Of a stretch of 64,000 bases of DNA, positions 1,736 through 50,032 are shown in pieces (the first letter of the stretch is position 1; every line of letters starts with the position of its first letter). The stretch is taken from NCBI GenBank assembly GCA_000002445.1, contig CM000207.1, positions 2,432,001-2,496,000 of the forward strand, in the 5' to 3' direction. Under the pieces are notes generated by a model. It ran no database searches, was not told the DNA's origin, and was given only the letters and a program-made list of their open reading frames with translations. The position numbers were made by a program, and so were the translations under genes. This DNA comes from Trypanosoma brucei (Eukaryota).

Positions 1736-1760
1736 ACAAGGGTGAAACATCCAAGGCACT

Positions 1761-10218: not shown

Positions 10219-10232
10219 GACAAGGGTGAAGC

Positions 10233-20500: not shown

Positions 20501-20537
<37 letters not shown>

Positions 20538-21910
20538 AAATATATATTTTTTTGTTATTGTTATTGTTAGTGTTGTTCTCTTCTCTTTCTGTTGGTGCAA
20601 ATTCATTTATTCGACAAGTTGTACTGCAATGCCTTACTCACTCCACCACACGTGTAAGACATCGTGTCTGTTCACTTTTATAAAAACTCAACAACGGCAG
20701 AAAAAAAAAGAAAAGAAAAGAAAAAAAAATTCACTTGATGTGTTTTTCTTTTTTCTTTTTTTTTCTTTACTTCGTGCACCCACGCCCTTTTTACACATAA
20801 GTTTCGGAAACTCAATTATTTCTCTGCCAAATGTTCATTTTTTTTTTATTTTATTTTATTTTTTTTAAATTCCTTTAGTGATGTGGGTATACTGAAAAGT
20901 GGGAATATTTGGCACTTAAAAACTTATACACCTTCCTTATTGTATATAATAACTTCATGGTAAAAGTAAAACAATATAGTTAAATAATAACCTCATGAGA
21001 AAACATAAGCGCAAAACATTCTAGACGCAAGCTTTTAATAAAAGTAAATATATTAAAATGAAGAAAAGGAGAGAGAGAAAGCGAGATAATAAATGGAAAT
21101 AGAGCGAGATAATAAATGGAAACTAAGCGGATGCACGGAAAAAAATTTTTTTTTAAAAAAGAAGAGAAGAGGAAAGTTATCCTCTCCATGCATAAACTTA
21201 CAAATTTGCGACTGCACAATATATATATATATATATAATAAATATAAATAAATAATAATAATAAAACACACATAAGCACGCACATATAAATATAAACATA
21301 CATGCACATGCAACGTCTATACGCCTGCTTCGCTTTTCATCAAGCTCTGATGAATTAAAACGAAGAGGAAATTTTGCAACAAAACAAAAAACAAAAAAAA
21401 CAAAAAAAAACGTGTTTCGCCCAAAGTAACACCCGCTTCGGTTGGTTGAAACGATACATTTCGTGTAGGTGTCTGTCGATCATACATTTAACGTTAATCA
21501 TTTAACGTTAATTATTTTTTTTCCTCTTTTATTTATTTTCCCCTCCTTTCCTTTTATTTCTTAAATGTTGGCCTCATGATCTTGAGAAGTGTGACAGTTA
21601 ATTCTTTGTTTGTTATTTAGGTGTTGTTTTTATTTGTGTTGTTTTGTTTTGCATAACAACACCATAAAACAGCTGCAGAATTTTCCCTTTGACCACCATG
21701 TGTTAAATAAATAAATAAACAGGAAGAGAGGGGAGGAAAAAACAACAACAACAACAAAAATTAGAAAGAACACCAGAGTGTGTGTGGAAGAAAGTTTACT
21801 CAACTTTATTATGATATAATACTAATATTAATATTAATATTTTTAAATATATAAGTAAATATAAGTGTATATATATATATATATATATATTTTTTTAATT
21901 ATATATTTAT

Positions 21911-22168
21911 TTATATATTTGTTACTTGGCGTTTTAACAGTAATGTTTCCTCTTGAGTGAAGGTGTTGAGAAGTTCTACCCGCTGTTGATATTCCTCCGC
22001 TTCAATTTGGTTTCTGAATTGCATTTCTTTGCAAAATATATCACGACGTAAATACGCGTACCGTAAAGTTTCATATCCCTCCGCTAACCGATGTAAAAGT
22101 GCGCTGTCAAAACCGAAAGAATTGTTGGAGGACCTTCGCATAACTGAATTTACACAAGAGGAATTCAT
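21911..22168 (-). CDS. Small 85-aa ORF on an island of normal sequence complexity inside the AT-rich block (hypothetical)
   Basis: Non-repetitive, balanced composition in contrast to its surroundings. The C-terminal half has a coiled-coil-like character. No recognisable family. Confidence 0.2.
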   Translation of the reverse strand: MNSSCVNSVMRRSSNNSFGFDSALLHRLAEGYETLRYAYLRRDIFCKEMQFRNQIEAEEYQQRVELLNTFTQEETLLLKRQVTNI

Positions 22169-22410
22169 TTAATACATGCGATGATTTGCCTTTGTTTATC
22201 TTTTTTCCTTTTCTTTGTGTGTACTTATCCTTCTTTGTTAATATATATATATATATATATATAAATATAAAAAAAACAAATAAAGAAAGAAGAAGTGAAT
22301 GTAAATATATAAACGTCAATATACGAAACTCACAAACAATTATAAGATGCGTGAAGTTTAAATTGAAAATCGCTAATAATGACCACCATACATATAACAC
22401 ACACACACAC

Positions 22411-22443
<33 letters not shown>

Positions 22444-23472
22444 CAAATATAAATGAACATACAAAATAAAAATAAAGCAAGTACTAATAAATAAATACAT
22501 ATAAATATGTACAAATACAGGTATACGCGCATGCATATGAAATGGTTCATTTTGTTTTACTTCACATGAGTTTTATGTTGACGCTAAAATTCACACAAAC
22601 TTGTACATATATATATATGTATATATTTATTTTTATTTTGTATGTTCATATATATGTATATATTTATTCTCCCAACGCTAATAACAGGAAACCAACCACA
22701 TGTCATTGCAACCTTCACACAATCCACTTACAAAAATAAAAAAAAAGAAAAGATCCGAATAATTTGGAATCGCAGTGACTGCATTTCCCTACAAAATTCC
22801 CCGTGTACTTCAATTATATATTAATTATATATAAAAAAGGGGAGGAAATGTTCACCTGCTGCACAAATTTTACTCCCTTATTTTCATATATTTTATTTTT
22901 TTTTGCTCAATTCCACGCCGCTTCTGTGAGTGTTCAAATAATAATAATAAAAATAATAATAATAACAATAATAATAATAATAATAATGCAAAAGGCAGCA
23001 GTACTTACTCATATATATATATACATATATAGAAATATATTGGATAAAAGAAATGAGATGGTTATGAAAACACAAAAAACAAAAAAAAAAGAGCGCTTGA
23101 ATAAAATGTTGAAAGTGGCGGATAATGTGAAGAGGAAAAGTTAAGAGATTTGACATGAAAACTTTTTTTTTAAAAAAAAAGAAAAAGAAAAGAAAAAACA
23201 AAGCGGCCGTCACAGACACGCACTTTTTTTTTCTTTCTTTTCTTCCTTCCTTTCCTTATTCATCCCTTTTTGGTTGCCGCTGTTGTTGTGTTGTGTTTTT
23301 TTTTTTCAATTTAATTCAATTTAATTTAATTTAACTTAATTCGAAAGCGATAACTTAACACCCAACGTGTTAATGTCCCGTTTGTTTGGCAGCCGTCACT
23401 GCCACAAAAAAAAAACACAAAAAAGAAAAAGAAAAACATGACTCGCACACAGGCGCTATAATATAATAATTA

Positions 23473-23508
<36 letters not shown>

Positions 23509-24598
23509 TATTATTTATTAATTTATTTATGCAAATCTGGAAGCAGTTATTACGAAGTTCATGTTAAATACATAACAGCAACAACAACAATAATAATAAT
23601 AGAGTAATAGAGTAATAGAGCTAAGAAACATATAAACTTTTTTTCTTTCCTTCTTTATTTTTTTCTTTTAAATTTTTTTTTTTTAAAATGCACCTAAAAG
23701 CAACTTTCCTCCACGTTCCTTCCATTTATATATATATATATATATTTATTTATTTATTTATTTTTATTTATTTTAACAGGAATGTTTCCGAAAAGAAAAT
23801 GAGGCCACTTTCTTTCAAATTCATTCAACTCTCTATCAAATATGACAAGACAAAATAAAAGAAAGAAAGAAGAGTATATGTAAGGACGCATTTGAATGCC
23901 GGAAATCCTTTTTTTTTCTATAAAAGAAAAAAAAATTTTTAAAAAAGCAAAAAAAAAAAAAAAAGAGTCGCCGCATGAGTGGCAAAATAATTAAAAAAAA
24001 AAAAGCAAAACTCCCTTCAGTTATTTCATCATTTTCGATTCATCGTTAAACATATTGAACGCGCATCGAAATGATTAATATCACTATTATTAATATTGTT
24101 ATTATTTTCTCTCATCTATGTCTTTTTGTTGTTTTTGCTGTTGTTTTTACTGTTTTAAAAGAGAAAAAAAAAGAAAAAAAATTATTCTCCTTTTTTCACC
24201 TTTCCCTTTCCCTTTCCCTTTCCCTTATTATTATTCTTATTCTTTTCAAATTATAAACATTTCCCCTCCTCCTCCCCCCTCCCCTTTCGCTCCTGAGAAG
24301 AGCGAACATCACCCCAGAGAATATTCATATATGCATTTTTGTTCAAATTTATAACCTTAAAAATATACTTTAAGTAAAAGACAATTCCGCAACACGCCAT
24401 GGTTATAACAACGAGGCATCAAAAAGAAGAAAAAGAAGGAAAAAAAAACACATTTACAAATAAATAAATAAATGAATAAATGAATATATATATATATATT
24501 AAACTCTCTTTTCTTTGGTTTGTGTATAGGTATATATATATATATATGTGAATGAGAAAGTGACTACCTTATGCATGACATTTCCTTAGCGGGGATGT

Positions 24599-29692: not shown

Positions 29693-29914
29693 CTATACCA
29701 CCTTTTCGATTTTAACTAGGGACATAGAGGCATCTACCAAGTATCGGTTAGCGGTACGTAGCCCAGTCACCTCTGCGCGACATATGGGACACACAGTTGC
29801 AGTTGAAACACAACCTCGGCAAAATATATGCGTACACGGCAATAGTTCTACAGGATCTGACCACTGCTCCAAGCAGATGACGCAAGCCACAACATCAGAG
29901 GCGGGTGCTACCAT
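29693..29914 (-). pseudogene. Inverted partial duplicate of the RING-finger exon of the 40102-41121 gene (73-aa fragment; C3HC4 RING intact, no GTPase part)
   Basis: Encodes MVAPASDVVACVICLEQWSDPVELLPCTHIFCRGCVSTATVCPICRAEVTGLRTANRYLVDASMSLVK, which matches the N-terminus of the 40102 gene at about 98 percent. It diverges after SLVK and terminates. Beyond the duplicated 5' leader it has no upstream polypyrimidine tract plus AG. Confidence 0.7.
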
Positions 29915-29984
29915 TGGTAATGGTGAGAAGGGGACAAGCCCCGGCCGCCAATAAATAGGTGCTAAAAACGCCTTAGGAACCGCT
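29708..29984. repeat. Left arm of the inverted repeat (277 bp, about 98 percent identical). The partner arm is at 40031-40307.
   Basis: The reverse complement of ccggccgccaataaataggtgctaaaaacgccttaggaaccgc (29941-29982) equals 40033-40074. The match continues through the RING coding region to the ctagttaaaat / attttaactag boundary. Confidence 0.85.
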
Positions 29985-31278
29985 ATGGAAGAGAGGGATC
30001 CTCCAACACAAATCTGTGACCGAGTCTCAGCAATTCGTAGATCCAGAGAAGGTGTTTAATTTGAACATAGAAATCCTCCAGCGGTGTCATGAACTTACCC
30101 CCATTTCCACTACATCCATGCGCGGCAGAAGGCACTGATGAAAATTTTTAAAAAGGTAGTGGAGGATGCCATTACACAAGCTCCGGCAGGCGCAACCAAA
30201 TCTGTTGAGTGCAGCATTTCATTGTTTTGCACTTGCCTGTCGACAGCGAGCGTGGACTTGATAGTCATCTCCGATCGTTAGTACACCCAATGCGATCCCC
30301 TTCCTGATTTCCTCCAGTCAACAGTTAGGCCAAGGTGGTGGAAAGTCACCATTCATCGTTACATACAGAGCATGATAGAAAAAAAAAAATGTCCCCTGCA
30401 CACGAAAAAACAATGGCACGGTTGTTTGTTATGTAACCTGACCGTGTGTATATCCCTGTTTACACTCCATTGATGTATTAGCCTTTGTGTGAACCATTAA
30501 CTAGAAGGCGGTGACGGCATATTAAGCAACAAGAAGCATGATAAGATTTTTAATGAGGGAAAGAAAAGGTAAAAGGGAACAACATTATGGTATTGAGGAT
30601 ATAGCGAACATGATGCTCAGTAAATTCAAATATTAAGATAGCTCCACATCAGTTCACCGCACTGCGCAACGCGGTGGTGGGATTCCCACTTTTGTATACA
30701 TCAAGAAATGCAACATTCATAGTGTCGTTATCTGCAGTTGCTCAACAATGAGTGCGCCTTGGCGGACTCATTACCCCCATACAAAGCAAAACGGTAAATA
30801 AACGTAATGTTTTTGTGCCATTGTTCTTTTTTTCTTTTTTTCTTTTTTTCTTTTTCCCCCTCCCCTCGTTTCTCACGCAGTAGGAAGAGTAGCATACACA
30901 TACATACGTGTCAAGGGAAAGTATTTACCACACATAAATGTAGTTCGAATACCTAATATGAACCCATTAGTGATGTTAGTAGGCACGTACATTCGTTTTA
31001 TTGTTTGGCTTCATACGTCCTCATTCTGTATCACCCCACTCGGTCGTGCCTTCAGTTGTAGAGTGACAACATAACCCGGGTATGTTTTTCAAAGTTTAGA
31101 TTGAGCAAAAAAAAAAAGCAAATGGAGACGAGAGTGCAATAAGTGCGCACCCGTAGAAAATATGCAACCACAGAAAGAGCAAGAGTATGTTGAACCATTA
31201 CAAATGTACTGGACGGCAAGGCTCACATGACATGTAATCTGGGATATGGACAACAGTAGTTTCATATAATATACTACA

Positions 31279-32736
31279 TCACATCAAACGATCGACAAAT
31301 TTGTTTAACAGCGGAAAGATCGGCTTCGGGTCCAGTCCGACAGTGATGGTGGCATTCGATACGGACAACAGTAGTCCCGATATATTGAAGGGGAGCCTAA
31401 ATCCATGCGGATCTGCATTAAACAAAGGAAGACCTACCTCATCGAGAAACCGACGGATATCTGTATTTAGAGTCGTTGAGTTCAAACCATCGATAAGCGA
31501 AGTGCCCAGTTCTGTCACTACATCCATAGACGATAACTTCAGGTCTAATGTATTGTTGTCGATGGACATGTGCCTTACATTAGCGGTCAAGTTCACAACC
31601 ATATTCAACACAGTGAATGACACGTTGTCCTCCGATACCATTTCCAGTGTAAAATTACCATTACGTGAGTTGAAAATGAATGCTCCGCCACTAACGGTCT
31701 CCAGCCATGGAGGCGATGGCAACACAGCCGAGACGCCAAAGTTGCATCCACGGCACAACCTGAATAACTCTGGGTACATGGGCTCAATTAGTGAAGAGTT
31801 GTACCTTTCTGGGAGGAGTAGGGAAACATTTAGCATGCTCCAGTTATTGAGCAAGCGGAGTACGTTGTTTGCAGCTCTGTATGAAGAGGTGATACTAACG
31901 CTCCGATATGGAAGTGACTGATCCACTGCAAGAACCTCATCTTGCGACACTACTCGAGACGAGGACTCATCGGAAAAAATACCCATTAAAAGCTCTGCTC
32001 GCTGCTCAGTTATGTTTGGGTCCTTCATGTATATAATGGGGAAACCACGGAATATCTCTTCTGCCTTACTTTGTACGACAGGGTTGATAATACCCGGGAC
32101 TATTCGCTGTAGTTCGTTTTTGATGCTGCCCTTGAAGATATCTATGATTCCGTTGATAAGGTTGTTGAGAAGCTGCATACCTCGAACAGCAACTGTTACA
32201 TTTATTTCTCCAAGTTCAATCATCATATCCCTCACTGTTGCATTGAGCAGACCATCGTTTCTAGCGGATAAGTCCATAGCAAACGATGCATTCGCACCGC
32301 GGATATCGGTAGCGGACGTGCCACTAGGGCACAGAAGCGGCCACCAACAAAGTGGACTGTAATAAAACTTAGTTTTTGGCACACTGGCTGCCATGTCCCA
32401 CACCGAAACCAAAAGTTTATTCGGGCTCTTCAGTTTGAGGGACATGTTTCCAATCGTTATGTTTGATACCTGCATTTCTTCCAGCTTAATACCTTGCACA
32501 CTTTGCTCAGGAACAGTAATGTTTCCGATAAGTTGTCTCAGCACGCGGTGAACCATGGGCACAGCAGAAGTCACGACGGATTCATCAACGGCAAATTTCA
32601 CGCTACCGGGTGCGGAAGACACGGGCGCTTCTCCATACTGAATGCCGTGAACCTGACCGGATGCTGCAACAAAATACGGCGCCAGTACCACGGCGACAAA
32701 AATTACCGTGTATATTAGAGTTGCAGCTCGTTGCAT
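31279..32736 (-). CDS. Secreted, heavily N-glycosylated protein (485 aa), possibly GRESAG5/ESAG5-like with a BPI/LBP lipid-binding fold
   Basis: ATG start confirmed. N-terminal signal peptide (MQRAATLIYTVIFVAVVLAPYFVAASG). About 17 NxS/T sequons. Alternating hydrophobic beta-strand-like pattern, about 480 aa. The GRESAG5/BPI assignment rests on recall of size, glycosylation and subtelomeric context, not on a verified motif. Confidence 0.5.
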   Translation of the reverse strand: MQRAATLIYTVIFVAVVLAPYFVAASGQVHGIQYGEAPVSSAPGSVKFAVDESVVTSAVPMVHRVLRQLIGNITVPEQSVQGIKLEEMQVSNITIGNMSLKLKSPNKLLVSVWDMAASVPKTKFYYSPLCWWPLLCPSGTSATDIRGANASFAMDLSARNDGLLNATVRDMMIELGEINVTVAVRGMQLLNNLINGIIDIFKGSIKNELQRIVPGIINPVVQSKAEEIFRGFPIIYMKDPNITEQRAELLMGIFSDESSSRVVSQDEVLAVDQSLPYRSVSITSSYRAANNVLRLLNNWSMLNVSLLLPERYNSSLIEPMYPELFRLCRGCNFGVSAVLPSPPWLETVSGGAFIFNSRNGNFTLEMVSEDNVSFTVLNMVVNLTANVRHMSIDNNTLDLKLSSMDVVTELGTSLIDGLNSTTLNTDIRRFLDEVGLPLFNADPHGFRLPFNISGLLLSVSNATITVGLDPKPIFPLLNKFVDRLM

Positions 32737-35700
32737 TGATGAACTAATATATATTCGATCTACCCGACGAAAGCCACTACCTACAAAAGTAAGGTGAATT
32801 TGTGTTAACCCAAACGGATGTCATACAAGAATCAGTTGCAACAAATAACTGTTGGTACAATCGATAAAAGATAGTGTAAAAATTTCCGAAAGATCATTAA
32901 CGGTAAGTGTGTCCACTTCGGCAGGGTAAGTCGACACCGTTTAAAAAGTGAATAATATACAAAAAGAAATATATCACCTTCATCACATACTTACGACTAC
33001 TTGAAGTAACCTTCTAATGGTCATTGTTTGTCATCGATGCTTGACAGTTAAGCTCCGCAAAGTACATCTCGAACAAATATCTAACGAGACAAACAAAATT
33101 AAAAAGACTGGGTTACAACAAAGCGCCGCGTTGAAACAGTGTGGGCTGTCAATAGTTATTCTAACCGAAAAATGTCATGCTCCACCGTATCGAGTGGTGA
33201 CAGCATTGACGTACTGAACACATGTATGGAATAGTAACAACACCTTCCCATACTTCACTTTGTCCCTCACTTTAACGCACTGTATTGTTCATCACCTGAG
33301 CAAACACTCACTTCACTCAACCGACAGGTCTATGCAATATGAGTTAGAATCTAAGAAGCCAGTAGCTAAAATATATGAGAGGGCGTGAAGTCTTCAATGT
33401 CAACAGACGCGGCTCACTGTCATTACCCATTCCGAAACATGTTCATATCAATACCACCACTGTTTACATACCTTTGTCACGTCTTTCAGTGGTATCGCTT
33501 CAAATACAATATTCACTCCTGCTAACTGATGTCACGACAAAACATATTGATGGCGTTAGAGCCGTCGTCATTGCTGTCGCTGCGATTCTTCCCACAGATC
33601 ATAGCTATCCAACCACAAATTCTAGACGGTTTAAAAAAGAGGAAATGACCATGCGATCTTCTCAATAGCAACTGCTCCAGTCACATATTATCGAGAATAC
33701 AACACCCTAAAACATTCCCGTAAAGTAATGGTGTGTGCCCACCTATGACAAATATATTTGAACTCGTTAAAACCATAAGGTTTACATTTTTTAAAAAAAA
33801 AAAGTCATTCGTCCGTAAAGATAGCTTACCAAAGGTTAATGAATAATTGCCACTTTCACATCTCCTTGGCATCCATCATACCCGCTGTTCGTCACTTTCA
33901 GTCTTTTTTCCAGGTCCCCGCGTGGGCGATGGTATTCCTTATGAATCTTCCTCCACAATCCAAAAGTCCACAGGAAGCATGTTGATAATACATCAGCCGG
34001 TAATTCCCTTGATCCCCTCCTTTTTTCAGTAGTAGCCAACCCGCCTTCTGCAGGCAGAGTCGACAGTTGGTCGGTACACCTTTCCTCCTTAGTACTGACA
34101 TTAAATATCCGTAGACGCTTTTAGATGTGTCGAAATATATTGTGTATACGTATACATACGTATGCATATGCATATTACCACATAGTAGGATCGCGCAACG
34201 AGAATTCACCGCAGACATTTCTAAGCAACGCGTTTGTGGCACTTAGCTGCAAGCCTCGCCGGTTTAACCAAATCCACAATGAAATGCGCAAACGTGCCTA
34301 CAGGGAAGCACGTTACCAAAGCTCTCCACGCTCGTAGCACCTTCTGCAGCCCTTGTGTGTGTGTGGGGGGGGGGGGGGCGATCCACCCAGTTGATCCGTT
34401 AGACGTCTCCCCCATTGTTTCTTTCTTTTTTTCCAGCATTGTAATGCCACCACACCCACACACCGGCGGCCACGGCCCCAACAAACTAAAGATCCCATTA
34501 AAATACGTGAGCGCGTGAGCGGCGGCGCACGTCAGCATAACAAGGCGGCGCAAAACTACTTTTATTGCATTACATCGGTTACCAGCGCGTATTTGGCGGC
34601 GTCCATATTTCTCTTTAGTTTCCCTTTCTCAGGGCACCTCGAATGCCCCACTGCGTTTCTTGAGGCGAGCAGGTTGCCTCAGTCCTGCCAATGAAAGTAG
34701 GGCGAAGGAAGGGCACTTCTTCCACCACCTCCAACAGTCAAGCCACTCCGATGTGGCTGAACTGTCGCCGCATTCGCCCCTGATACTTCCACAAAATTTA
34801 TAACAATCACTTCGCCAAACGGCAATAAGACCTGACTGCCCACCGCAGTTGAGGGGACGGGGCCACGCTGCAGCACCGAGGCACTCAAGTCCACCTCGGC
34901 GTTGCCGCGTTCCTCTACCATCTCCGTTACTGGATAGCGGCGGTGGGTCGGCGGAACTCGTTGTTGAAAAATATAAATAGACAGTTTCATGTAGTGGACC
35001 GCCGTAATTGAATCCGGGTGAGTTGTGTTGTGGCCGCAGTTGTTAGGAAAGCGGATTCGCTGCAGCCAACCTGCGGTTTATCCGAAATATCGCACTGTTG
35101 TTGGTCCTCAAACCGGGTCGGGGCGGTGAGGCGGTGGCGCGTGTGCTCAAAGGGGGAATGCCGGTTAATTGGACGCTTACGAGTTTGTGAATATTGACGT
35201 GAAGGCAACTGGTATTGCGATTTTTTGTTGGTAATGTTCTCCCCTCCCTTTCCTTCCTTCCTTCCCATTCCCTCAAGGAGACGGCAGGGGAAATGTCGAG
35301 GGTACGAGTTAGCTGTGGTGATGAACGCTTCAAAAATGTGTCCTAAACTTTTTAGATATCTTACTGCGGAAAGTGTGGTGCAACATAAATACAGTTGCGG
35401 TTAACCCCACACGACTTTGTGTTTTGGGAGGGTGCAAAACAAAAACCAGAGAAGTTTAAGCGCGCCACTACAAATTTAGATGGGACCCACATCCCTTCAC
35501 TTAGCAAATTGCAGCTTATCCCGCAGAACTTTCTGCAGCCTGAATGAAATGACCCTTACCTCGGTTGGATGATCACCGGTTGTGGTGAGTTGCTTCCAAG
35601 CAACTGGGAACCGGCTGATGATCTCGCTTAGGGATTCTTTGTGAAAAGGCGTGGGATCTATGTGACATTTCAGTGTAAAAAGGAAAAAAGAAAGTGGACG

Positions 35701-38700
35701 CCACGAAACTTGCCAAGAAAAATATTTGAATGTTAATGGGCAACGCACATTGCCCGCCACAAGATTCCAGTGGAAAAAACAACCAAGTGGTGAATATTTC
35801 GCTATTCTTACTGACAAATATGGGCAATATATTCGAGTGAAAAGTACTTAGCTTTTAAAGGATCTTCATAGTGTATCACTGATGGGCTCCGAGCAGTGAA
35901 TGCCCCCAGCTCCGGCGATAAACGCCGTCAGTGCAAATGGCAGCGCAGTGGATTTATTTTTTTCATGTTGCTGCTAATGTGGAAAGGTATGTAACATCAC
36001 ATGCAATAATGTGTTTTAATTTCGTCATGCAAGGGAGGGGTCATCCGCTTAGCGAAAACAAGCCATCAATGTGTTATCTATAACATATAACTTGTACATA
36101 GTGCGCTCAGGGAAATGGAGGTAAAAAGAAAACATGATATCGGAAGATACGACGCTGTTGTGCCTGGGTGCACAGATGAGTAACGAAACTGCGTTGAAAA
36201 CAGTCGTAACTGTTATTGGACACATAACTTTCAGTGTTTTTTTTTCAAAAATAAAAAACGAATAGTAATGCAGAAAAGTACTGAGTATGCACCACGGGAA
36301 TGGGGCACCAGCTCTGTTGGTTCCATTTTTCGGTTCTACTCAAATGTGTGTTATGTGTTACGAGCAAAAAAAACCGGGGCGAAGTATTGGACATTGTTGA
36401 TACTGTCATCGTGAGGTTCGGAGCGTGGTAATAAACTATTTACCCTCGTCCTAGTGACTGGATCGTTACGGGTGGAAGTAAGATGGTGTCGTTATACCTG
36501 TTTATGTTGGTTCGCTCTCGTGATATCATAATAAGGGATTCCACAATTATTATTATTATTTCGCTGCAGTTTCCCCCTCAGAAGTTGAAAACTCATGTGC
36601 TAAGTTTTCCTCCTCATTAGAGGCACTGTCTAGTGAATTCAAGCGTCGTGTGTGATCCGGTGTTGTGCAAATATGTCGTTGTGAACTTTGTTACCTGCCA
36701 CGAGCTTTCCTATGATATGGAGAACTTCGTAACCGTTGTGCGAATGAGATGAAGTCAATTTACTCTTCCGCTCGGGGTTGGTATTTTTTTTTTTTTTTTG
36801 CATCCCATGGCTTTGTGTCACCATAAATGATTGTGTCGTCCCATTATTTTACCTCTATAGTCGCTTCATTTCTAATGTGATCGTTGAGTTGATGGCCCCT
36901 TATCTTCTCTGTCAATCTTACAATAATCATCCTAGAAAAACTTTTATAGGTGATGATTCATTTCTGCTGTTGTGATAGCAACGACAATGCGAACTCTGCA
37001 ATACCAAAAAACGATTCGGGTGTGTGCTTCGGTAAGGTTATGAAGGAAGGAATGTAATTAACGTTTTGGTCCGTAAATGAACGTTCTCATCTTTGGCGTG
37101 TCCCAACACTCAGAGACTTCGATTCAGTTATGTATGCCATAAGTTCATTTGCATATGAAAAGATGTCGAATTAATGTCTAGTGGTTCTTGTGCTTTGTTC
37201 AACCATTCATTCGATCTTTCGGAGCACTCTGCACAATACTTCACTTTCGGTTTATGATATGTGCCCTTCTCCATCTGTCCTTGCTACTATGTTGCTCACT
37301 TGGAAATTTGGATCATAGTTGCAGTTCAATTCTTTCTCACATTTTTTTCCATGGCACGACGGCTGCCGTCCGTTGGCGTGATTTATCCTCTTGATGTCCA
37401 AATCCTAATCGTATTTCTAACCTTATAATGGTGGTTGTGGTGCTGTGTGGACATACTGACCGGCAGTGCATAATACCAATTGTGTACGATGTTTTGCATT
37501 GTTTATTTATTTTGAGCGTTAATTGGACCGAATACCTGTACCACCAGACCCATCCAAGGCTCACATGCTGTTCGGTCATGAGAAAAGTTTATGGTGCACT
37601 ACAGCGGAGGTGTTTGTGATATTTTCGGTGCAGATGTTTTACCGGTGACTTTCGGCAATTGTTGCTGTTGTCAAAAGCTTTTTGCACGCTCCGCGAGGGG
37701 ACTGATATGTGATATCTCTCACGTCGGTAGGTGTGCTGCTACCGGTTATGTGCAAAGTGATACCTGTATCAAATTTGACTGCTTGTTTGTAGTCTGTAGT
37801 ATTTGAGTTTGCTCATGGAGAGTTGTTGCTTGTTTGGTTTTAATTCGATCGTGTTTAACTTCTCCCTCAGCTAAGAGTGATGTATGAACTGGAGTATATG
37901 GGATTACCTGCGTGTGTGCGGCTCTCCTTTTTTATCCTTTACCTTTCCATCACGGCTATAACACCACTACTCAAATGCAGTTTTCTCCAGTGCGATGGGG
38001 ATATATGATTGCTCGCGTAGCCATCATTGGCATACTTTTTTTGCTGGGTAAACGCAGCGCGTTCCATTACCATAATCAGATGATGCGTATTTGATCAGCG
38101 CTGTTTATATCTATCCCCCGGTAGCTTCCTCCCTATAAATGAATCATGATGCAGCACAGTTTTTGTTCCTTAGGTTCACCTGCCATATTTGGTAGATTTT
38201 CATCACACATGTTCTAAAAGGGGGATTGTAGTGTTACGCATGCAAGTTCTTGTGTAGACGTTGGCATATGGAATATCAAGTGGCTGTTGCTGCTATTTTC
38301 AGGGGAAAAAAAAAAAAGAAACGTCATCACATGGTAGCGTTAACGTGACAGACGCCAGAGAAGGGAGGAAAAAAAATCAGTCCAAGTAAACAATAAGGAG
38401 CAGCGAGGTGGGAAGTTGTTAAAGGAAAAGGTGAAGCAGTGTTACGCGTGGTCTACTTTTGGTACATATGAGCGGCACTGCCGACGCATTATATACGCGC
38501 ATCAGATGGTATCCCCATGAAGAAACTCTGCGTTTGGGATTCAAAAAAGAACTTTTCACAACACATCTGGTGACAAATTGGTGCGTTGCGAAGAGTTATG
38601 CGCAGTAAAAGGAACATTTTGTGTCTTTAATAGTCCCGCTGTTGGGGGGGGGGGGATTGTTAAATAAGTGTTTCTGGTGAGGTAAGATACATTACATAAT

Positions 38701-40101
38701 TGAACCACAGAAGGGAAATTGAGTAGCGTATTAAAAATTCTTCATGATATGTGTAAGTTCGGCTGGATTATCATCCTACTGAAATCATGTGACATGGATG
38801 ATGTTTGTGATTCGATGTGCTAAGTGTGAGGTGAGGTCATGCCTTGTTGTGTAATACCACATGGACATTCGGTCAATGTTTTTTTTTTTCGAACGGGTTG
38901 AAAAAAGAGCGCTCGCATGCACATCAGGTTTGTAATCACTGCAACGAATGCTTTATTGTGATTGAGAAGCGCGCATTGAGTGGGAGAGTACAACTCTCTA
39001 TCTCTCTCTGTGTGCGTGTGTTATGCGTGCTAAAGTGTATTATGTTCTATAACGGTGTCGATGGTGGCGCTCTGACAGCAGTGTCTATATATCACCGCAG
39101 TGGGTGTTGTGAACACGTGTGTATGTCCTTTGTGTTTTCAACTGAATTGTTGTGTTTGTTAGATAAAACTTTAAGAGTTCGTGTTCCATTAGTTGCACTG
39201 GAGAACTTCTCTAGCAATCGATGAAAGCGGTGATGTTGCTTGATTTCAAATGCTCATGCGACCAATGTGGAGCATTCGGTTGAGAAATGAAATACCCTTT
39301 TGTTTCTCTGTTTCTGGTGTGTAAAAACGCAGTGTGCTTACGGTGTCTCCTCGTGCCTCCTTTGTCTTTGCAAAAAAAAAAAAGACGTTGCACTTGACTT
39401 GTTTCCGGTTTTTGGCACATGTTGGGTTGAGAGTGAAAAGTAATGGGTAACTGGATATATCTTCCTTTTTTATCTAGGGGGGAAAAACAACTGTATGCGA
39501 GGGGGCTTAGTGTTATTATTTCATTGGAAAGTGGTTGACGGGTACTTGCCGGCGTGTGGTGCAAATTGTTTCCTTGCATAGTGCTGGGTGTAATCAGTGG
39601 TGGTATTTTTTTTTCCAAATGACGGGTGTGCACAAGGAACGAGTAGTAAGAGTGAAATACGGAGGCATGAGGTTCAGTGGAGCTAAAACTGTGCAGAAAT
39701 TGCTATTGGTCACTACGCCTATGAATTTTAAATGCTCAACTGGTGGGGGTACGGCGCAGGACTCGTGTATTCACTACCCCAAAAAGGTCCCACGAGGGGC
39801 CAACAACAGTGCTTGGAGGTCCGTTGGCGTCTTGTGGAACTCCGAATACACGGATTATGTGCCAAGTAATTTGTACAGTCGATATCTTTGTTTTTAGCCG
39901 CGAGTGCCGAGGCTTGGTCGTTGCGCATGTGCCAACAATCCGGTGGAGCAGCTATGAGCTGCGATACAGGCGCGTGCTTGCGTGCCACATCACTTCCCCC
40001 TTATTTGCCATTTTTTAATTACATAACTAATAGCGGTTCCTAAGGCGTTTTTAGCACCTATTTATTGGCGGCCGGGGCTTGTCCCCTTCTCACCATCACC
40101 A
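32737..40101. promoter_or_regulatory. Divergent strand-switch region, a candidate RNA pol II transcription start region. It lies between the minus-strand gene ending at 32736 and the plus-strand gene starting at 40102.
   Basis: Gene orientation flips here. There is no convincing ORF across 7.4 kb. The region contains GT-rich and G-homopolymer elements, gtgtgtgtgtgt followed by G14 at 34375-34388 and G13 at 38644-38656. In T. brucei, GT-rich elements mark transcription start regions. Confidence 0.4.
39991..40033 (+). promoter_or_regulatory. Polypyrimidine tract plus AG, a putative trans-splice acceptor for the RING-Rab gene
   Basis: cacttcccccttatttgccattttttaatt at 39991-40020 is followed by taAG at 40030-40033, about 70 nt upstream of the ATG at 40102. 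Confidence 0.5.
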
Positions 40102-40307
40102 ATGCCAGCACCCGCCTCTGATGTTGTGGCTTGCGCCATCTGCTTGGAGCAATGGTCAGATCCTGTAGAACTATTGCCGTGTACGCATATATTTTGCCGA
40201 GGTTGTGTTTCAACTACAACTGTGTGTCCCATATGTCGCGCAGAGGTGACTGGGCGACGTACCGCTAACCGATACTTGGTAGATGCCTCTATGTCCCTAG
40301 TTAAAAT
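40031..40307. repeat. Right arm of the inverted repeat (partner of 29708-29984). It covers the 5' leader and the RING-finger coding region.
   Basis: See the left arm. Confidence 0.85.
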
Positions 40308-41121
40308 GAAGGAACGGGATGAAAAGGCACGCGAGGAGGCGGAAAAATTGCTAAATGAAGTCATCGAGCAATCACAGGGGAAAATGTATAAGCCTACCGC
40401 GGCTGCCGGTGTGGGAGTTAACACACAGCCGCACAACCGGCGGATGAGGGTGGAAACGCTAAGAAGCACGCCTGATTATATTTTTAAGATTATACTCGTC
40501 GGTGATAGTTATGTTGGGAAGACCCGATTCTTGAAGAATCTCGTTGGTGCTATCGGCTTCGGGGATCAATGCGTCACCACCCTCAGCGTTGATGTCGTTA
40601 ATCATTACGTTATCGTTGATGGAAAGACAGTTCAGGTTTTAATGTATGATACTTGCGGCCAGGAACGTTTCCGAGCCATGACAGCACAGTTCTACCGTGA
40701 CGCCCACGGTGCCATAATGGTGTACGACACCACTCAAATTGGGAGTTTCGACAATATCGAAGTGTGGTTCTCGCAGCTCAACAGTTTTGGTTGTGAAAAT
40801 ACGAGCAAAATACTTGTCGGAAATAAATGTGATCTCCCCGAAAGAAGGGCCGTTGAAATTGGGCGGGCCAGAGCCCTGGCCGACAAACTGGGCGTTCCCT
40901 TTATAGAAACGAGCGCAATGACTGGTGCCGGAGTTGCCGTAGCAGTTGAGGCCTTAGTGAGAATGATTATGAGACAACAACCTGTTCCACTAGCCAGCCA
41001 ATGGGCAGGCAGTAAAAGCGGACATAGAAATGCAGTCAATTTGGAAAGACCCCGCCGGGAGAACGGCACCGGCAGACGGTCTGAGAGGAGCCAGAGAAAT
41101 GATAATTGTTGCTGCCAATAA
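40102..41121 (+). CDS. RING-finger (C3HC4) / Rab-like small GTPase fusion protein (339 aa) with a C-terminal CCCQ prenylation-type motif
   Basis: ATG start. RING spacing C-x2-C-x12-C-x-H-x2-C-x2-C-x6-C-x2-C (CAICLEQWSDPVELLPCTHIFCRGCVSTTTVCPICR). GTPase G1 GDSYVGKT, G3 DTCGQE followed by RFRAMTAQFYRDAHGAIMVYD (Rab-family RFRS/YYRGA signature region), G4 GNKCD, G5 ETSAM. Ends ...NDNCCCQ. Confidence 0.8.
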   Translation: MPAPASDVVACAICLEQWSDPVELLPCTHIFCRGCVSTTTVCPICRAEVTGRRTANRYLVDASMSLVKMKERDEKAREEAEKLLNEVIEQSQGKMYKPTAAAGVGVNTQPHNRRMRVETLRSTPDYIFKIILVGDSYVGKTRFLKNLVGAIGFGDQCVTTLSVDVVNHYVIVDGKTVQVLMYDTCGQERFRAMTAQFYRDAHGAIMVYDTTQIGSFDNIEVWFSQLNSFGCENTSKILVGNKCDLPERRAVEIGRARALADKLGVPFIETSAMTGAGVAVAVEALVRMIMRQQPVPLASQWAGSKSGHRNAVNLERPRRENGTGRRSERSQRNDNCCCQ

Positions 41122-41532
41122 GATGAGCTTACCATAGCCTTGTGTGAATGGTGCGTTAACAAAGGGTCTCGCCCCAATATCCAGTCAGTGAGTTAACTTA
41201 GGTGTAATGTGCATGTGCAAACGCAGTCTTTGATTTCTTTTATTGATGTTCCTGTGCTTCTCCTCCCCTCAAAATAAAATAAAATAAAAGGAAAGCTGAC
41301 GATGCCCTTAGGGAGTCAAGAAGATGGTTCGATGTCCCTTCTGTGCGTCCAACGAGGTGCGTGCACTTTCCACCGCTAAGCTCTGCGCCTCGCTCACAAC
41401 CGTAAAACAAGAGTCTTTTTTTTTCTTTTTGAATAATGCACATGCAGACGATCTGCCCCCCTCATTCACACACATATACACATATACAAAGACACTGTGA
41501 AGCGATAAAAAGCAGCGTCGAGACCTGGCGAA

Positions 41533-42720
41533 ATGCAGTGTCTCCGCTTCGTCGATGGTAAAAAGTGTTCAGTCAACACAGTGGGTGCATCCCTTTCTGC
41601 AGTGGCATGCGTGGTGGCGTTTATAGCCTTCATTGCTGAAATTAATTCTGAGGGTTGGCAATATAGGGGGAAGGTATGGTTAGATGCACCAACTAGTCGG
41701 CGAGTCCCATTTAGGAATCCGAGAGTCATTTTTGTTGTTGTTCAGACCCGACCCTCTCCAGGTTGGTGCAGAATGTTGATGACTGCTGTTGTCACGAATG
41801 TTTCTGTAATTTCTATTGGTATGGGTGGGAATTACAGTCACACCATCCGGGCAAACTGGTTATTGAACTTCTTGGATGATGAGGGTCTCCATGATGATGA
41901 TGTGTTAGTTATGTTTGATGGTGCGGACACATTCTTCACTGATGAGATCAATCGAAAAGAGATGCTAGACCCGTTCATAAAAATGTCTCCCCCACTGCCC
42001 AAATTCTTTAACCAAACGGCTATATACAGAGGTGACGCTTGGCCGCCCATGCTTCACATGGCAGAACCAGATTGTTATGCTCCCCAGTTGAACATCACAT
42101 ACAACCCGCAAAATGAGTCGCATTGGGATCGATGCGCAAGGTTTTACGCCATGGGCCTGTCAGAAGCGAAAACATTCGGTGCTGAGCGGCTTCTGGGGTT
42201 GCCACCTCCCGTGCGTGGACACCTCAACAGTGGAGGAATTGTGGGCCGGGTATGGGCGTATAAAGAGGCCTTTAATGTCTATTTAAAGTTCAGGGAGACA
42301 TCCTCTAAATGGTGGTGCGATCAGACCATGTGGACAATACTTTTCATTTGGAGCGCAGGAAATGCAACGGGTGTGGATCCCAAATACATAATACGGCGTG
42401 GAATAATTAGTCTTGACTATGACAAGAGATACTTTTACTACCCAACAGCGGCGTACAACACGCGTGCGATGATCGGCCACTTCACAGGAAATCCCCACCA
42501 GTGGTTACGGTATCTCCCGAAGTACTTTACTCGCCTTCCTTGGTATAGGAACCTTGCGGGAAACAGTACCTACAGGCAGAGTGTCGTGGAAGCATTACGA
42601 AATACGACCGTCATAACTTACAAATACACCCGGGAGAAGGTTTTGAAAAGTTATGAGGATGTCTGCAACGTTGAAGAAATGACCGACCCCGACTTCGTGG
42701 TCGACCCACTGGATAAGTGA
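41533..42720 (+). CDS. Type II membrane protein, putative glycosyltransferase-like (395 aa)
   Basis: ATG start, with a polypyrimidine tract plus AG upstream (ttgatttcttttattgatgttcctgtgcttctcctcccct). N-terminal signal-anchor (SLSAVACVVAFIAFIA). Luminal domain carries an acidic DxD-like motif (HDDDVLVMFDGADTFF) and several NxS/T sequons. The GT family was not identified. Confidence 0.45.
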   Translation: MQCLRFVDGKKCSVNTVGASLSAVACVVAFIAFIAEINSEGWQYRGKVWLDAPTSRRVPFRNPRVIFVVVQTRPSPGWCRMLMTAVVTNVSVISIGMGGNYSHTIRANWLLNFLDDEGLHDDDVLVMFDGADTFFTDEINRKEMLDPFIKMSPPLPKFFNQTAIYRGDAWPPMLHMAEPDCYAPQLNITYNPQNESHWDRCARFYAMGLSEAKTFGAERLLGLPPPVRGHLNSGGIVGRVWAYKEAFNVYLKFRETSSKWWCDQTMWTILFIWSAGNATGVDPKYIIRRGIISLDYDKRYFYYPTAAYNTRAMIGHFTGNPHQWLRYLPKYFTRLPWYRNLAGNSTYRQSVVEALRNTTVITYKYTREKVLKSYEDVCNVEEMTDPDFVVDPLDK

Positions 42721-48583: not shown

Positions 48584-50032
48584 TTACTGTGACTCATCTT
48601 TCGGGAGAGCCGAATTGACACCCAGGGCACACATACATCCAGCAAAGATACCAAACAGCAGTGAACTAACGGCCCAGTTGGCTGCTAGAGAACGTTCGCC
48701 AGCGGTCGTCAGCGAACCAGTACGCGGCGCGTAGACTCCCGCTAGACCCCCCACGTAGCCATACGTGAGCGACCAGAGGAAGCAAAGAATATAAGGGAAT
48801 GTCGTGCCCTTAATCACACTGTATGCGCAAAGCACAATTGGAATGACGAGCAACAAACGCGCAAACGTCCCAATCACCACAAAGAGCGGTGATGCGTGCA
48901 GAGTCTTGAACTGAACGAAAAGGCGCGCCACAAAATCTCCCAAGTTAAACATCATCGGAATGATCACCATATACCAGCCGTTGTCATCCGGCCCCAGTTT
49001 GACAGCAAAGAATACACCAGGGTAGATGAGGAAGGCGGTAAAGAACGCAATAAAGCACACGGCTAACATGGGCCAAACACGCCTGAACACAGACAACGCA
49101 CTCGCCTTCAACATCTGTTGCGAGTTCGTGATATTCTCAACCTGGTCCGTGTCCCTCATCGTGTCAGGGTCTACAGTGGAAGTCATCACGTTGCTCTTGC
49201 CCGCGTTGCAATCCGCTTTCAAATCGTCATCCTGGTCGGCCGGACCCTTTCCTAAGCTACTCGGTTCATTATCATCTCCAGCGTCATCACCTTCAACAGC
49301 ATTCCCTTTCCTCGCCGCGTAACGAAAGTCTGCTGTATACTTCATGGCGTAAGGGTTCTTCCTCAGCAGCAGCAGAAGACCACAAGAAATCGACTGCATA
49401 ATCATGACCAACCCAAAGTATATGCGTGACTGAGTGAGCCTACTCGCGACGCGGTCTTCTGTACGCTTGAAGTTACTCTCCGTGGAAGCTTTAATAACAA
49501 TCGCAAACGTCGACGTGATAACACCACACACTGAAACACCCCACACGTACGCACTCAAAAACTTCGTTGGAAAGGGACCGGCAAGTGCAACGGCACCGGA
49601 GCTGCAAAGTGCAGTGGAAGCTCCGTTTATCAAACCAATCAGTATAATGGTTACCCTGGCACCGGTTTCCGTTGTTTTTCCGATGGTAACCATCATCACA
49701 GAAAATACTAAGATAATCGGAAAGACAAGACCAATATAGAGGCGAAGGGTTATGGGAATCCGCTTTCCAAAGTTTGTGAGCATCAGTGACACTACCAAAC
49801 ACTCCACAATAAACGTCGTCGCAAGATAGTACGTGAAGACATTTTTCCAGAAAAATTTCTGCTCTTCCGTCTCCAGCTTGATGTTCTCGCCATCCTTGGC
49901 CGCGAAAAGGTAGAACTGGAGGAAGAACTCCAGGAACGACAAGACCGTGTTCGACACCACCATCACCGACATCCCAAAACACATGAAGGTGATATAGGCA
50001 AGGAGTTCATGCACAGAACCGAAGCCAAGCAT
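48584..50032 (-). CDS. Equilibrative nucleoside transporter (ENT) family protein, trypanosome NT/AT1-like (482 aa from the ATG)
   Basis: Multi-pass membrane protein with about 11 predicted TM segments. A large central hydrophilic loop (KGNAVEGDDAGDDNEPSSLGKGPADQDDD...) lies between TM6 and TM7, as in ENTs. The N-terminus MLGFGSVHELLAYITFMCFGMSVMVVSN and the C-terminal PRTGSLTTAGERSLAANW resemble trypanosome NT-family transporters. The track ORF start at 50068 is a TTG. The first ATG is at 50030-50032. Confidence 0.7.
   Translation of the reverse strand: MLGFGSVHELLAYITFMCFGMSVMVVSNTVLSFLEFFLQFYLFAAKDGENIKLETEEQKFFWKNVFTYYLATTFIVECLVVSLMLTNFGKRIPITLRLYIGLVFPIILVFSVMMVTIGKTTETGARVTIILIGLINGASTALCSSGAVALAGPFPTKFLSAYVWGVSVCGVITSTFAIVIKASTESNFKRTEDRVASRLTQSRIYFGLVMIMQSISCGLLLLLRKNPYAMKYTADFRYAARKGNAVEGDDAGDDNEPSSLGKGPADQDDDLKADCNAGKSNVMTSTVDPDTMRDTDQVENITNSQQMLKASALSVFRRVWPMLAVCFIAFFTAFLIYPGVFFAVKLGPDDNGWYMVIIPMMFNLGDFVARLFVQFKTLHASPLFVVIGTFARLLLVIPIVLCAYSVIKGTTFPYILCFLWSLTYGYVGGLAGVYAPRTGSLTTAGERSLAANWAVSSLLFGIFAGCMCALGVNSALPKDESQ

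What the first reader, a model, noticed from the sequence alone, without database searches (positions are those of the whole stretch)
29693..40330. A 277-bp inverted duplicate of the RING exon brackets a roughly 10 kb segment containing a divergent strand-switch region and a lone secreted-glycoprotein gene
29708-29984 on the minus strand is about 98 percent identical to 40031-40307 on the plus strand. It includes about 70 nt of 5' leader and the first 69 codons (RING intact; V/A, A/T and L/R substitutions). The two arms are head-to-head around a centre near 35.0 kb. The minus-strand GRESAG5-like gene (31279-32736) and the whole 7.4 kb gene-free divergent region lie between them. Long inverted repeats flanking a transcription start region are substrates for homologous inversion (flip-flop). 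An inversion would swap which polycistron the enclosed gene belongs to. The left arm has lost the splice-acceptor tract and diverges after SLVK, so it is a decaying fragment. Even so, it records an inverted duplication event spanning a strand-switch region.
Basis: seen in the sequence. Interest (0 to 1): 0.7.

Follow-up and report, generated by a model that had tools for sequence, protein, structure and literature searches.

The report
Inverted gene-fragment duplicate flanking strand switch
A 278-base copy of the start of a trypanosome RING/Rab gene sits upside-down 10 kb away, across a region where transcription diverges; it is real, shared by three Trypanosoma brucei-group genomes and kept similar to its parent by gene conversion, but I found no sign that the enclosed segment flips.

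Summary
Observation confirmed. Window 29709-29986 (-) and 40030-40307 (+) are 271/278 identical (97.5%). It is the only inverted repeat of 80 nt or more in the 64 kb window. The window is T. b. brucei TREU927 chromosome 9.

The right arm is the predicted 5'UTR plus codons 1-69 (a complete C3HC4 RING) of a 339-aa RING + Rab-like GTPase gene. The left arm lies 1.3 kb downstream of GRESAG5, in the opposite transcription unit.

The same two arms, with identical edges and the same orientation, occur in gap-free sequence of T. b. gambiense DAL972 and T. equiperdum IVM-t1. This is therefore an old, fixed feature and not a mis-join.

Homology stops abruptly at both edges. Across strains the arms group by strain rather than by side: IVM-t1 arms differ at 1 site, while orthologous right arms differ at 6-8. 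That indicates repeated arm-to-arm gene conversion, not decay. The left copy keeps an open 73-codon RING-only ORF and its own short pyrimidine tract plus AG.

All three gap-free assemblies show one orientation, and divergence inside the segment is no higher than outside. A flip-flop is possible in principle but unsupported.

Verdict: an ordinary conserved inverted partial gene duplicate evolving in concert. Curiosity: the arms sit symmetrically around the compositional strand-switch point.

The parts
29709..29986 (-). Left arm: inverted partial copy (ATAG + 68-nt predicted 5'UTR + codons 1-69) of the RING/Rab gene, lying 1.3 kb downstream of the GRESAG5 stop codon
   Evidence: 271/278 identical to the right arm; present with identical edges in DAL972 (L004 12741-13022) and IVM-t1 (L005 7859-8140)
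29693..29914 (-). 73-codon RING-only ORF carried by the left arm (69 copied codons + IEKVV-type tail of 4 codons + stop)
   Evidence: ORF; Pfam zf-C3HC4_3 E=6.9e-10; open in 927, DAL972 and IVM-t1; expression not tested
29983..29997 (-). Left copy's own 11-nt pyrimidine tract (ccctctcttcc, 29987-29997) followed by ATAG (29983-29986): a possible trans-splice acceptor
   Evidence: read from the sequence; function inferred only
31279..32736 (-). GRESAG5 (ESAG5-related, signal peptide, 17 N-glycosylation sequons): the only gene between the arms
   Evidence: 485/485 identical to TREU927 EAN77394.1; weak LBP_BPI_CETP hit
32737..40101 (.). 7.4 kb stretch without credible genes: a divergent strand-switch region. 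The G-C skew minimum is at 34,925 and the keto skew minimum at 34,895. There are G-runs at 34365-34378 and 38644-38655
   Evidence: no Pfam domains in ORFs; no tandem arrays; no Rfam hits
39993..40033 (+). Right copy's long pyrimidine tract (39993-40016) and first downstream AG (40032-40033): the predicted spliced-leader acceptor. The repeat starts at 40030 (ATAG)
   Evidence: read from the sequence; the acceptor use is inferred from the general polyY + first-AG rule in T. brucei (own knowledge; Siegel et al. 2010, PMC2926603)
40030..40307 (+). Right arm: 5' end of the functional-looking gene
40102..41121 (+). RING + Rab-like GTPase gene, 339 aa, ending in CCCQ. TREU927 annotates only residues 64-339
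   Evidence: (zf-RING 11-46, Ras 129-290)

Best explanation
The left arm is a dispersed, inverted, sharply bounded partial duplicate of the first 278 nt of the transcribed part of a T. brucei-group RING + Rab-like GTPase gene (predicted 5'UTR plus a complete RING domain). It arose once, before the split of T. b. brucei, T. b. gambiense and T. equiperdum. It landed in the intergenic region downstream of GRESAG5, on the other side of a divergent strand-switch region.

Since then the two copies have repeatedly exchanged sequence by non-crossover homologous recombination (gene conversion). At least one exchange went from the truncated copy into the functional gene. This keeps the copies 97.5-99.6% identical within a genome and, as a by-product, keeps the 73-codon RING-only ORF open.

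The orientation of the enclosed 10 kb segment is fixed in every gap-free assembly available. Most likely the fragment has no function of its own. It is a gene relic that acts as a small conversion donor and acceptor, and it is a latent but unrealised inversion substrate.

Shown: existence, edges, conservation, orientation, concerted evolution. Inferred: a single origin by copy-and-insert (templated repair or ectopic duplication), and lack of function.
For: - Arms 271/278 identical with abrupt edges. No flanking similarity even at word size 7 or by tblastx.
- Identical edges, position and orientation in DAL972 and IVM-t1, both without N-runs. Each genome has arm-specific variants, so the two copies are physically distinct.
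- Distance matrix: IVM_R-IVM_L 1 difference, IVM_R-DAL_L 1, right-right orthologues 6-8, left-left 2-6.
- Of 5 informative sites, only 1 separates left from right. Three (core sites 168, 194, 228) are shared by both arms of the same strain(s). That needs 9 steps on a by-arm tree against 6 on a by-strain tree (my count).
- The IVM-t1 right arm carries the left-type codon 2 (P2A), as in its deposited protein P0121.
- 278 bp exceeds the roughly 200 bp at which T. brucei homologous recombination plateaus.
- Divergence between strains is 1-3% both inside and outside the bracketed segment.
- The left ORF is open in three strains.
Against: - Only three independent genomes. The OVI scaffold has 10-N gaps and is not independent.
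- DAL972 contigs were ordered against TREU927 (PMC2854126), although this stretch has no gaps.
- Near-identity of the IVM-t1 arms could be inflated by read mis-mapping during polishing. However, site 228 is supported by the 927 and DAL972 assemblies alone.
- No outgroup, so the mode of origin and which copy is the parent are inferred.
- Both edges coincide with transcript or ORF landmarks (the splice AG, and the ATG of M70). The arms are also symmetric about the skew switch. A random copy-and-insert event does not explain either.
- No expression data, so lack of function is an assumption.
Confidence: 0.75

Rival explanations
1. Footprint of an ancient inversion. The 10 kb segment was inverted once by staggered breaks at the 5' end of the RING/Rab gene. 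Fill-in of the staggered region left the 278-nt stretch duplicated in inverted orientation at the two ends. In the ancestor GRESAG5 would have sat directly upstream of RING/Rab on the same strand.
For: - A single pair of sharply bounded inverted duplicates of non-repetitive, genic sequence lies exactly at the two ends of a segment. This is the signature reported for 17 of 29 Drosophila inversions (PMC1885836).
- Abrupt edges with no flanking homology.
- The left copy has its own pyrimidine tract + AG, which could be the ancestral acceptor.
Against: - No outgroup arrangement is available.
- The staggered-break model as published relies on end joining. T. brucei is thought to lack classical NHEJ and to use microhomology-mediated joining instead (own knowledge).
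- The long, typical pyrimidine tract is at the right copy, next to the intact gene. That fits the right locus being undisturbed.
Confidence: 0.2
2. Active flip-flop. Crossover between the arms reversibly inverts the segment, moving GRESAG5 and the start region between the two transcription units. Populations would then be mixtures of both isomers.
For: - The arms demonstrably recombine.
- Their length is sufficient for efficient homologous recombination.
- An inversion would leave all ORFs intact (geometry).
- 55 and 110 kb inversions between 927 and DAL972 exist elsewhere in the genome (PMC2854126).
Against: - The orientation is the same in all 3 gap-free assemblies from three taxa.
- There is no elevated divergence inside the segment.
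- Polycistronic, constitutive transcription makes a switch function implausible (inference).
Confidence: 0.05
3. The left copy is a functional mini-gene encoding a 73-aa RING-only protein (for example a regulator of, or competitor with, the RING/Rab protein), kept by selection rather than by conversion alone.
For: - The ORF is open and all eight zinc ligands are intact in three strains.
- It retains the 5'UTR and the AG, with an upstream pyrimidine tract, and lies in the sense orientation of its transcription unit.
Against: - The three substitutions private to left arms are all non-synonymous (V2, V12, E68).
- Conversion from the parent copy explains ORF maintenance equally well.
- No gene was called there in DAL972 or IVM-t1, and the exact protein is not on record.
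Confidence: 0.12
4. Reverse polarity. The RING module was captured at the right locus, creating a lineage-specific RING-Rab fusion in front of an older Rab-like ORF that started at M70. The left arm would be the donor, or a sibling copy of it.
For: - The 3' edge of the repeat falls 2 nt into the ATG of M70.
- Among the best 150 of 1.84 billion representatives, the only clear full-length match is the T. brucei-group cluster. The 10 multi-stretch hits I checked are Rab-Rab tandems; the rest of the list was not checked for RING.
- TREU927 annotators started the gene at M64.
Against: - Nothing resembling the rest of a RING gene lies downstream of the left arm; it runs only 4 codons to a stop.
- Removing the arm from the right locus leaves no AG between the pyrimidine tract and M70.
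- No third RING copy in the window.
Confidence: 0.08
5. Assembly artefact (a mis-join or a duplicated read pile).
For: none found
Against: - The arms differ at 7 sites in 927.
- Both arms are present, with their own private variants, in DAL972 and IVM-t1.
Confidence: 0.01

Closest known systems
Paralogous inverted repeats evolving in concert by arm-to-arm gene conversion (e.g. human Y-chromosome palindromes, plastid inverted repeats; own knowledge)
   Same: Two inverted copies on one chromosome. Copies within a genome share lineage-specific variants and are as similar as, or more similar than, orthologous copies.
   Different: Tiny arms (278 nt) with a 10 kb unique spacer. One arm is part of an intact gene and the other is a truncated fragment. 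The arms are 97.5% identical in 927, so conversion is episodic, not continuous.
Long inverted repeats of T. brucei TREU927 that yield siRNAs (Tschudi et al. 2012, PMC3447711)
   Same: Same genome; high-identity inverted repeats separated by kilobases.
   Different: The seven published repeats have 422-10,011 bp arms at 99-100% identity, and none is on chromosome 9. This one is shorter, more diverged and not listed. Its arms lie in opposite, diverging transcription units, each in sense orientation, so no hairpin RNA is expected (inference). Small RNAs were not testable here.
Inverted duplications at inversion breakpoints, staggered-break model (Ranz et al. 2007, PMC1885836)
   Same: Inverted duplicates of unique genic sequence delimit a segment, with sharp edges and one truncated copy.
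   Different: No ancestral, un-inverted arrangement is known here. Only one duplicated block is present.
Inverted-repeat-flanked invertible or amplifiable segments (plastid and 2-micron flip-flop; ODIRA in yeast, PMC4689423; inverted-repeat-mediated amplicons in Leishmania, own knowledge)
   Same: Inverted repeats bracket a segment. In T. brucei, a segment of this kind is of the type that binds ORC1/CDC6 (transcription-unit boundaries, PMC3607257).
   Different: No second isomer, no copy-number change and no mapped origin are shown for this locus.

Membership tests
Inverted partial gene duplicate under concerted evolution | Two copies with delimited homology on one chromosome, in opposite orientation | tested here: met
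   278 nt, 271/278 identical, abrupt edges
Inverted partial gene duplicate under concerted evolution | Both copies orthologously present, with the same edges, in related genomes (a single old event) | tested here: met
   DAL972 and IVM-t1 have both arms with identical boundaries
Inverted partial gene duplicate under concerted evolution | Lineage-specific variants shared by paralogous copies; copies cluster by genome rather than by locus | tested here: met
   sites 168, 194 and 228; IVM_R-IVM_L differ at 1 site against 6-8 between right-arm orthologues
Flip-flop invertible segment | Inverted repeats long enough for recombination flank the segment | tested here: met
   the homologous-recombination plateau is about 200 bp
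Flip-flop invertible segment | Both orientations are found among molecules, isolates or assemblies | tested here: not met
   the same orientation in 927, DAL972 and IVM-t1. The sample is small and no read-level data were available
Flip-flop invertible segment | Orientation changes expression of the enclosed or adjacent genes | not testable with these tools
   Needs RNA data from both isomers
Inversion-breakpoint duplication (staggered breaks) | Inverted duplicates of non-repetitive sequence at both ends of the segment | tested here: met
Inversion-breakpoint duplication (staggered breaks) | An outgroup shows a single copy and the opposite orientation | not testable with these tools
   No non-brucei trypanosome locus could be retrieved. 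Protein searches found no orthologue
T. brucei siRNA-producing long inverted repeats (Tschudi 2012) | Arms of at least 422 bp at about 99-100% identity, included in the published list | tested here: not met
   seven repeats, none on chromosome 9. Here the arms are 278 bp at 97.5%
T. brucei siRNA-producing long inverted repeats (Tschudi 2012) | Small RNAs map to the arms | not testable with these tools
   No small-RNA data available
Processed retrocopy of an mRNA | Spliced-leader sequence at the 5' edge and/or a poly(A) tail at the 3' edge | tested here: not met
   the sequence upstream is ...ggatccctctcttcc, not the spliced-leader 3' end. The copy includes ATAG from upstream of the splice site and has no A-tail
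ODIRA-type substrate | Inverted repeats flank an active replication origin | tested here: inconclusive
   Inverted repeats: yes. The origin is inferred only from the general rule that ORC1/CDC6 sites lie at transcription-unit boundaries (PMC3607257). No data exist for this locus

The most novel reading that the evidence does not exclude
The two arms lie mirror-symmetrically about the point where base-composition skews flip. The midpoint is 35,008, and the skew minima are at 34,895 and 34,925. In T. brucei that is the kind of site where both divergent transcription and replication start.

The duplicate might therefore have been made by a template switch between the two sister forks (or the two diverging transcription bubbles) leaving one initiation site. 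That would copy the mirror-position sequence in inverted orientation. The resulting origin-flanking inverted repeat could still mediate rare inversion or ODIRA-like amplification in cell populations.
Probability: 0.06. Interest if true: 0.7.

Novelty: new member of a known kind. Interest (0 to 1): 0.3.

Why it matters
It gives a small, clean, natural example of ectopic gene conversion acting across a transcription start region in the T. brucei chromosome core-like sequence next to a VSG array. A truncated copy has rewritten codons of an intact gene: P2A in IVM-t1.

It also flags that the TREU927 annotation of the RING/Rab gene omits its RING domain.

As a genome-stability feature it is a defined substrate on which inversion or crossover frequency could be measured with long reads. 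It does not by itself change how strand-switch regions or GRESAG5 expression are understood.

Tried and rejected
- **Exact-protein look-ups.** Window proteins (GRESAG5, RING/Rab, the 73-aa ORF, the 232-aa neighbour) and TREU927 entries were not on record. No further strains could be added.
- **N-terminal query.** A search with residues 1-128 returned nothing, not even the known orthologue, so it is uninformative.
- **Search for RING+Rab orthologues.** Among the best 150 of 1.84 billion representatives, the only clear full-length match is the T. brucei-group cluster. The 10 multi-stretch hits I checked with Pfam are tandem Rab-Rab models.
- **Six-frame Pfam scan of the spacer.** The ten longest spacer ORFs have no credible domain. 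There are no tRNA or Rfam hits and no tandem arrays in the spacer. The bacterial promoter/terminator scan is at background and irrelevant for a trypanosome.
- **Retrocopy idea.** Rejected: no spliced-leader sequence.
- **Larger decayed duplication.** Rejected: no flanking similarity.
- **Third RING copy or ESAG8-type RING near the LRR gene in the window.** None found.
- **Coding constraint (pN/pS).** Too few substitutions to decide, for either the RING or the left ORF.
- **Divergence plateau inside the segment, as a sign of an inversion polymorphism.** Absent.
Full report
**1. Observation**

The repeat finder returns one inverted pair in 28-42 kb, and in the whole 64 kb window at 80 nt or more. 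The arms are 29709-29986 and 40030-40307, 278 nt, 97% complementary, 10,043 nt apart. A sensitive blastn (word 7) gives 97.48% over exactly 278 nt (271/278). Neither blastn nor tblastx finds any further similarity between 27.0-31.3 kb and 38.0-43.0 kb. The pairwise alignment shows homology beginning at ATAGCGG and ending at CTAGTTAAAAT, with unrelated sequence on both sides.

**2. Organism and genes**

Pfam finds two VSG_B genes (1761-3185 and 10233-11654) and a retrotransposon hot spot protein (15587-17359, minus strand). It also finds a nucleoside transporter and an LRR protein.

The ORF at 31279-32736 (-) is 485/485 identical to TREU927 EAN77394.1, annotated as an ESAG5-related protein. Residues 64-339 of the ORF at 40102-41121 (+) are 276/276 identical to TREU927 EAN77398.1. 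The window is therefore T. b. brucei TREU927 chromosome 9, at a junction between a VSG/RHS array and core-like genes.

The right-hand gene encodes 339 aa. It has a C3HC4 RING (residues 11-46), a linker, a Ras/Rab domain (129-290) and a C-terminal CCCQ. DAL972 and T. equiperdum annotate all 339 aa. TREU927 annotates only 276 aa from M64, which drops the RING.

Among the best 150 of 1.84 billion cluster representatives, the only clear full-length match is the T. brucei-group cluster. The ten multi-stretch hits I checked with Pfam are tandem Rab-Rab models. The remaining hits were not checked for a RING.

**3. Anatomy of the arms**

- *Right arm.* A long pyrimidine tract (39993-16) is followed by the first AG at 40032-33. 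The repeat starts at 40030 (ATAG). The ATG is at 40102. The repeat ends at 40307, 2 nt into the ATG of M70.
- *Left arm (minus strand).* It has its own 11-nt pyrimidine tract (29997-29987), the same ATAG, the same 68-nt leader and 69 codons. Four new codons and a stop follow, giving a 73-codon RING-only ORF at 29693-29914.
- *Differences.* Seven nucleotide differences give P2V, A12V, T39A and R52L.
- *Not a retrocopy.* No spliced-leader sequence precedes the left arm.
- *Orientation.* Each arm is in the sense orientation of its own transcription unit. The two primary transcripts are therefore not complementary and no hairpin RNA is expected (inference).

**4. The strand switch**

Genes to the left (GRESAG5, and the 232-aa and 241-aa ORFs) are on the minus strand. 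RING/Rab and the 395-aa gene are on the plus strand.

The 7,365-nt stretch between GRESAG5 and RING/Rab has no ORF with a credible Pfam domain, no Rfam or tRNA hit and no tandem arrays.

G-C skew is negative from 33 to 34.9 kb and positive from 34.9 to 40 kb. The cumulative minima are at 34,925 (G-C) and 34,895 (keto). A (GT)n-G14 run lies at 34365-78 and a G12 run at 38644-55. This fits a divergent start region. No chromatin or RNA data could be consulted.

**5. Comparative evidence**

I retrieved orthologous loci from three genomes:
- T. b. gambiense DAL972 (FN554972.1; L003 and L004)
- T. equiperdum IVM-t1 (QSBY01000016 and QSBY01000017; L002 and L005)
- T. equiperdum OVI (L001)

The window is colinear with DAL972 over 21.3-51.1 kb at 93.6-97.4% identity by block. 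It is colinear with the two IVM-t1 contigs over 21.4-37.9 kb and 36.0-51.1 kb. These loci contain no N-runs. The OVI locus is a scaffold with 10-N gaps, so I did not count it as independent.

Both arms are present in DAL972 and IVM-t1, with exactly the same edges and the same orientation relative to GRESAG5 and RING/Rab. The duplication is therefore a single old event, and mis-assembly is excluded. No assembly shows the inverted isomer.

Sliding-window divergence between strains is 1-3% both inside and outside the bracketed segment. The one exception is a patch in GRESAG5 at 32001-32500 (13.6% against DAL972, 8.4% against IVM-t1).

**6. Concerted evolution**

The seven available arms have 14 variable sites in the 278-nt core.
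- Only one site (76) separates left arms from right arms, and IVM_R carries the left-type base there.
- Site 228 is A in both 927 arms and in OVI_R, but G in both arms of DAL972 and IVM-t1.
- Site 194 is C only in both IVM-t1 arms.
- Site 168 is T in DAL_L, IVM_L and IVM_R.
- Pairwise differences: IVM_R-IVM_L 1, IVM_R-DAL_L 1, 927_R-927_L 7, DAL_R-DAL_L 5. Orthologous right arms differ at 6-8 sites and orthologous left arms at 2-6.
- The five informative sites need 9 changes on a by-arm tree and 6 on a by-strain tree (my count).

This is the signature of gene conversion between the arms, with at least two events. One of these went from the truncated copy into the intact gene in the IVM-t1 lineage. 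That matches the deposited IVM-t1 protein, which begins MAAP... and has ...TACPICR.

Caveat: short-read polishing could homogenise repeats in IVM-t1. Site 228, however, rests on the 927 and DAL972 assemblies.

The 278-bp arm length is above the roughly 200 bp at which T. brucei recombination efficiency plateaus (PMC1904282).

**7. What it most likely is**

It is a conserved inverted partial gene duplicate that evolves in concert with its parent. The 'decaying fragment' description is not supported, because the edges are abrupt, the copies are homogenised and the 73-codon ORF is open in all three strains.

Function of the left copy is unproven. Its three private substitutions are all non-synonymous. 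Substitution counts are too small for any pN/pS inference.

Flip-flop inversion is mechanically possible and would preserve all ORFs. It has no support in the data I could reach, and it would probably have little regulatory consequence in constitutive polycistrons (inference).

Origin is open between two routes. One is copy-and-insert, which I favour because the typical long acceptor tract sits at the intact gene. The other is an inversion by staggered breaks, a pattern documented in Drosophila (PMC1885836). It needs an outgroup to resolve.

**8. Relation to what is known**

Tschudi et al. surveyed TREU927 for large inverted repeats and listed seven. Their arms are 422-10,011 bp at 99-100% identity, none is on chromosome 9, and all yield small RNAs (PMC3447711). 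This repeat is shorter, more diverged and not on the list.

Inversions of 55 and 110 kb between 927 and DAL972 are known on chromosome 10 (PMC2854126). ORC1/CDC6 sites and origins map to transcription-unit boundaries in T. brucei (PMC3607257). That makes an inverted repeat around a strand-switch region formally resemble an ODIRA substrate (PMC4689423), but nothing here shows such activity.

**9. Unexplained coincidences**

- The midpoint of the arms (35,008) lies about 85-115 bp from the skew-switch minima (34,925 and 34,895). If the switch could fall anywhere in the 7.4 kb stretch, this closeness has roughly a 3% chance. The test is post hoc.
- The 5' edge of the repeat coincides with the predicted splice AG.
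- The 3' edge coincides with the ATG of M70.

These could be chance. They motivate the low-probability sister-fork template-switch reading given as the novel case.

**10. Verdict**

This is a new, unlisted member of a known kind of feature. Interest is modest.

Noticed in passing
window 1-4400 and 8483-12900: An 8.48 kb tandem duplication in the VSG array. The flanks are 97-100% identical, but the two VSG_B coding regions (1761-3185 and 10233-11654) are only 78-87% identical in parts. This looks like segmental replacement of a VSG inside otherwise identical cassettes.
   Followed up: no
window 32001-32500 (GRESAG5 residues ~80-240): A localised hypervariable patch: 13.6% nucleotide divergence from DAL972 and 8.4% from IVM-t1, against 1-3% elsewhere. 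TREU927 database entries include two further GRESAG5 sequences (CAJ16335, CAJ16186) with other versions of the patch. This suggests mosaic conversion from ESAG5/GRESAG5 paralogues, or a second copy of the locus.
   Followed up: partly
window 40102-41121: The TREU927 annotation (EAN77398.1 and CAJ16188.1, 276 aa) starts at M64 and omits the intact upstream RING domain, which DAL972 and T. equiperdum annotate (339 aa). The protein is an unusual RING + Rab-like GTPase ending in CCCQ. Among the best 150 of 1.84 billion representatives, the only clear full-length match is the T. brucei-group cluster; only 10 of the other hits were checked with Pfam.
   Followed up: partly
window 34895-35008: The compositional strand-switch point (G-C and keto skew minima at 34,925 and 34,895) lies within about 100 bp of the midpoint between the two repeat arms (35,008).
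   Followed up: partly
window 40030-40033 and 40305-40310: The repeat edges coincide with transcript and ORF landmarks. The 5' edge is the ATAG holding the predicted spliced-leader acceptor AG. The 3' edge ends 2 nt into the ATG of M70.
   Followed up: partly
window 20000-24500: A very AT-rich (GC 0.25-0.31) block full of low-complexity repeats separates the RHS/VSG array from the core-like genes. It is conserved, with many indels, in DAL972 and IVM-t1.
   Followed up: no
L005/L002 (IVM-t1), window 36039-37894: The IVM-t1 assembly breaks inside the strand-switch region. Contigs 16 and 17 overlap by about 1.8 kb, and in the overlap their divergence and gap counts against the window differ. They may represent two haplotypes or contig-end errors.
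   Followed up: no
L001 start (OVI contig CZPT02001742.1): The T. equiperdum OVI scaffold ends about 0.5 kb beyond the start of L001. By my arithmetic that falls inside the left arm, as expected if a short-read assembly breaks at the repeat. The scaffold also has many 10-N gaps.
   Followed up: no
window 40102-42720, 42.7-48.5 kb and 55-59.5 kb: The plus-strand unit to the right of the switch seems to hold only two genes. It is followed by a convergent switch in front of the nucleoside transporter (48584-50068, minus strand). A second divergent switch, with a GC peak and skew flip near 58 kb, precedes an LRR gene that is split into two ORFs (59504-60133 and 60151-61017), probably a pseudogene. 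No inverted repeat flanks that second switch.
   Followed up: no
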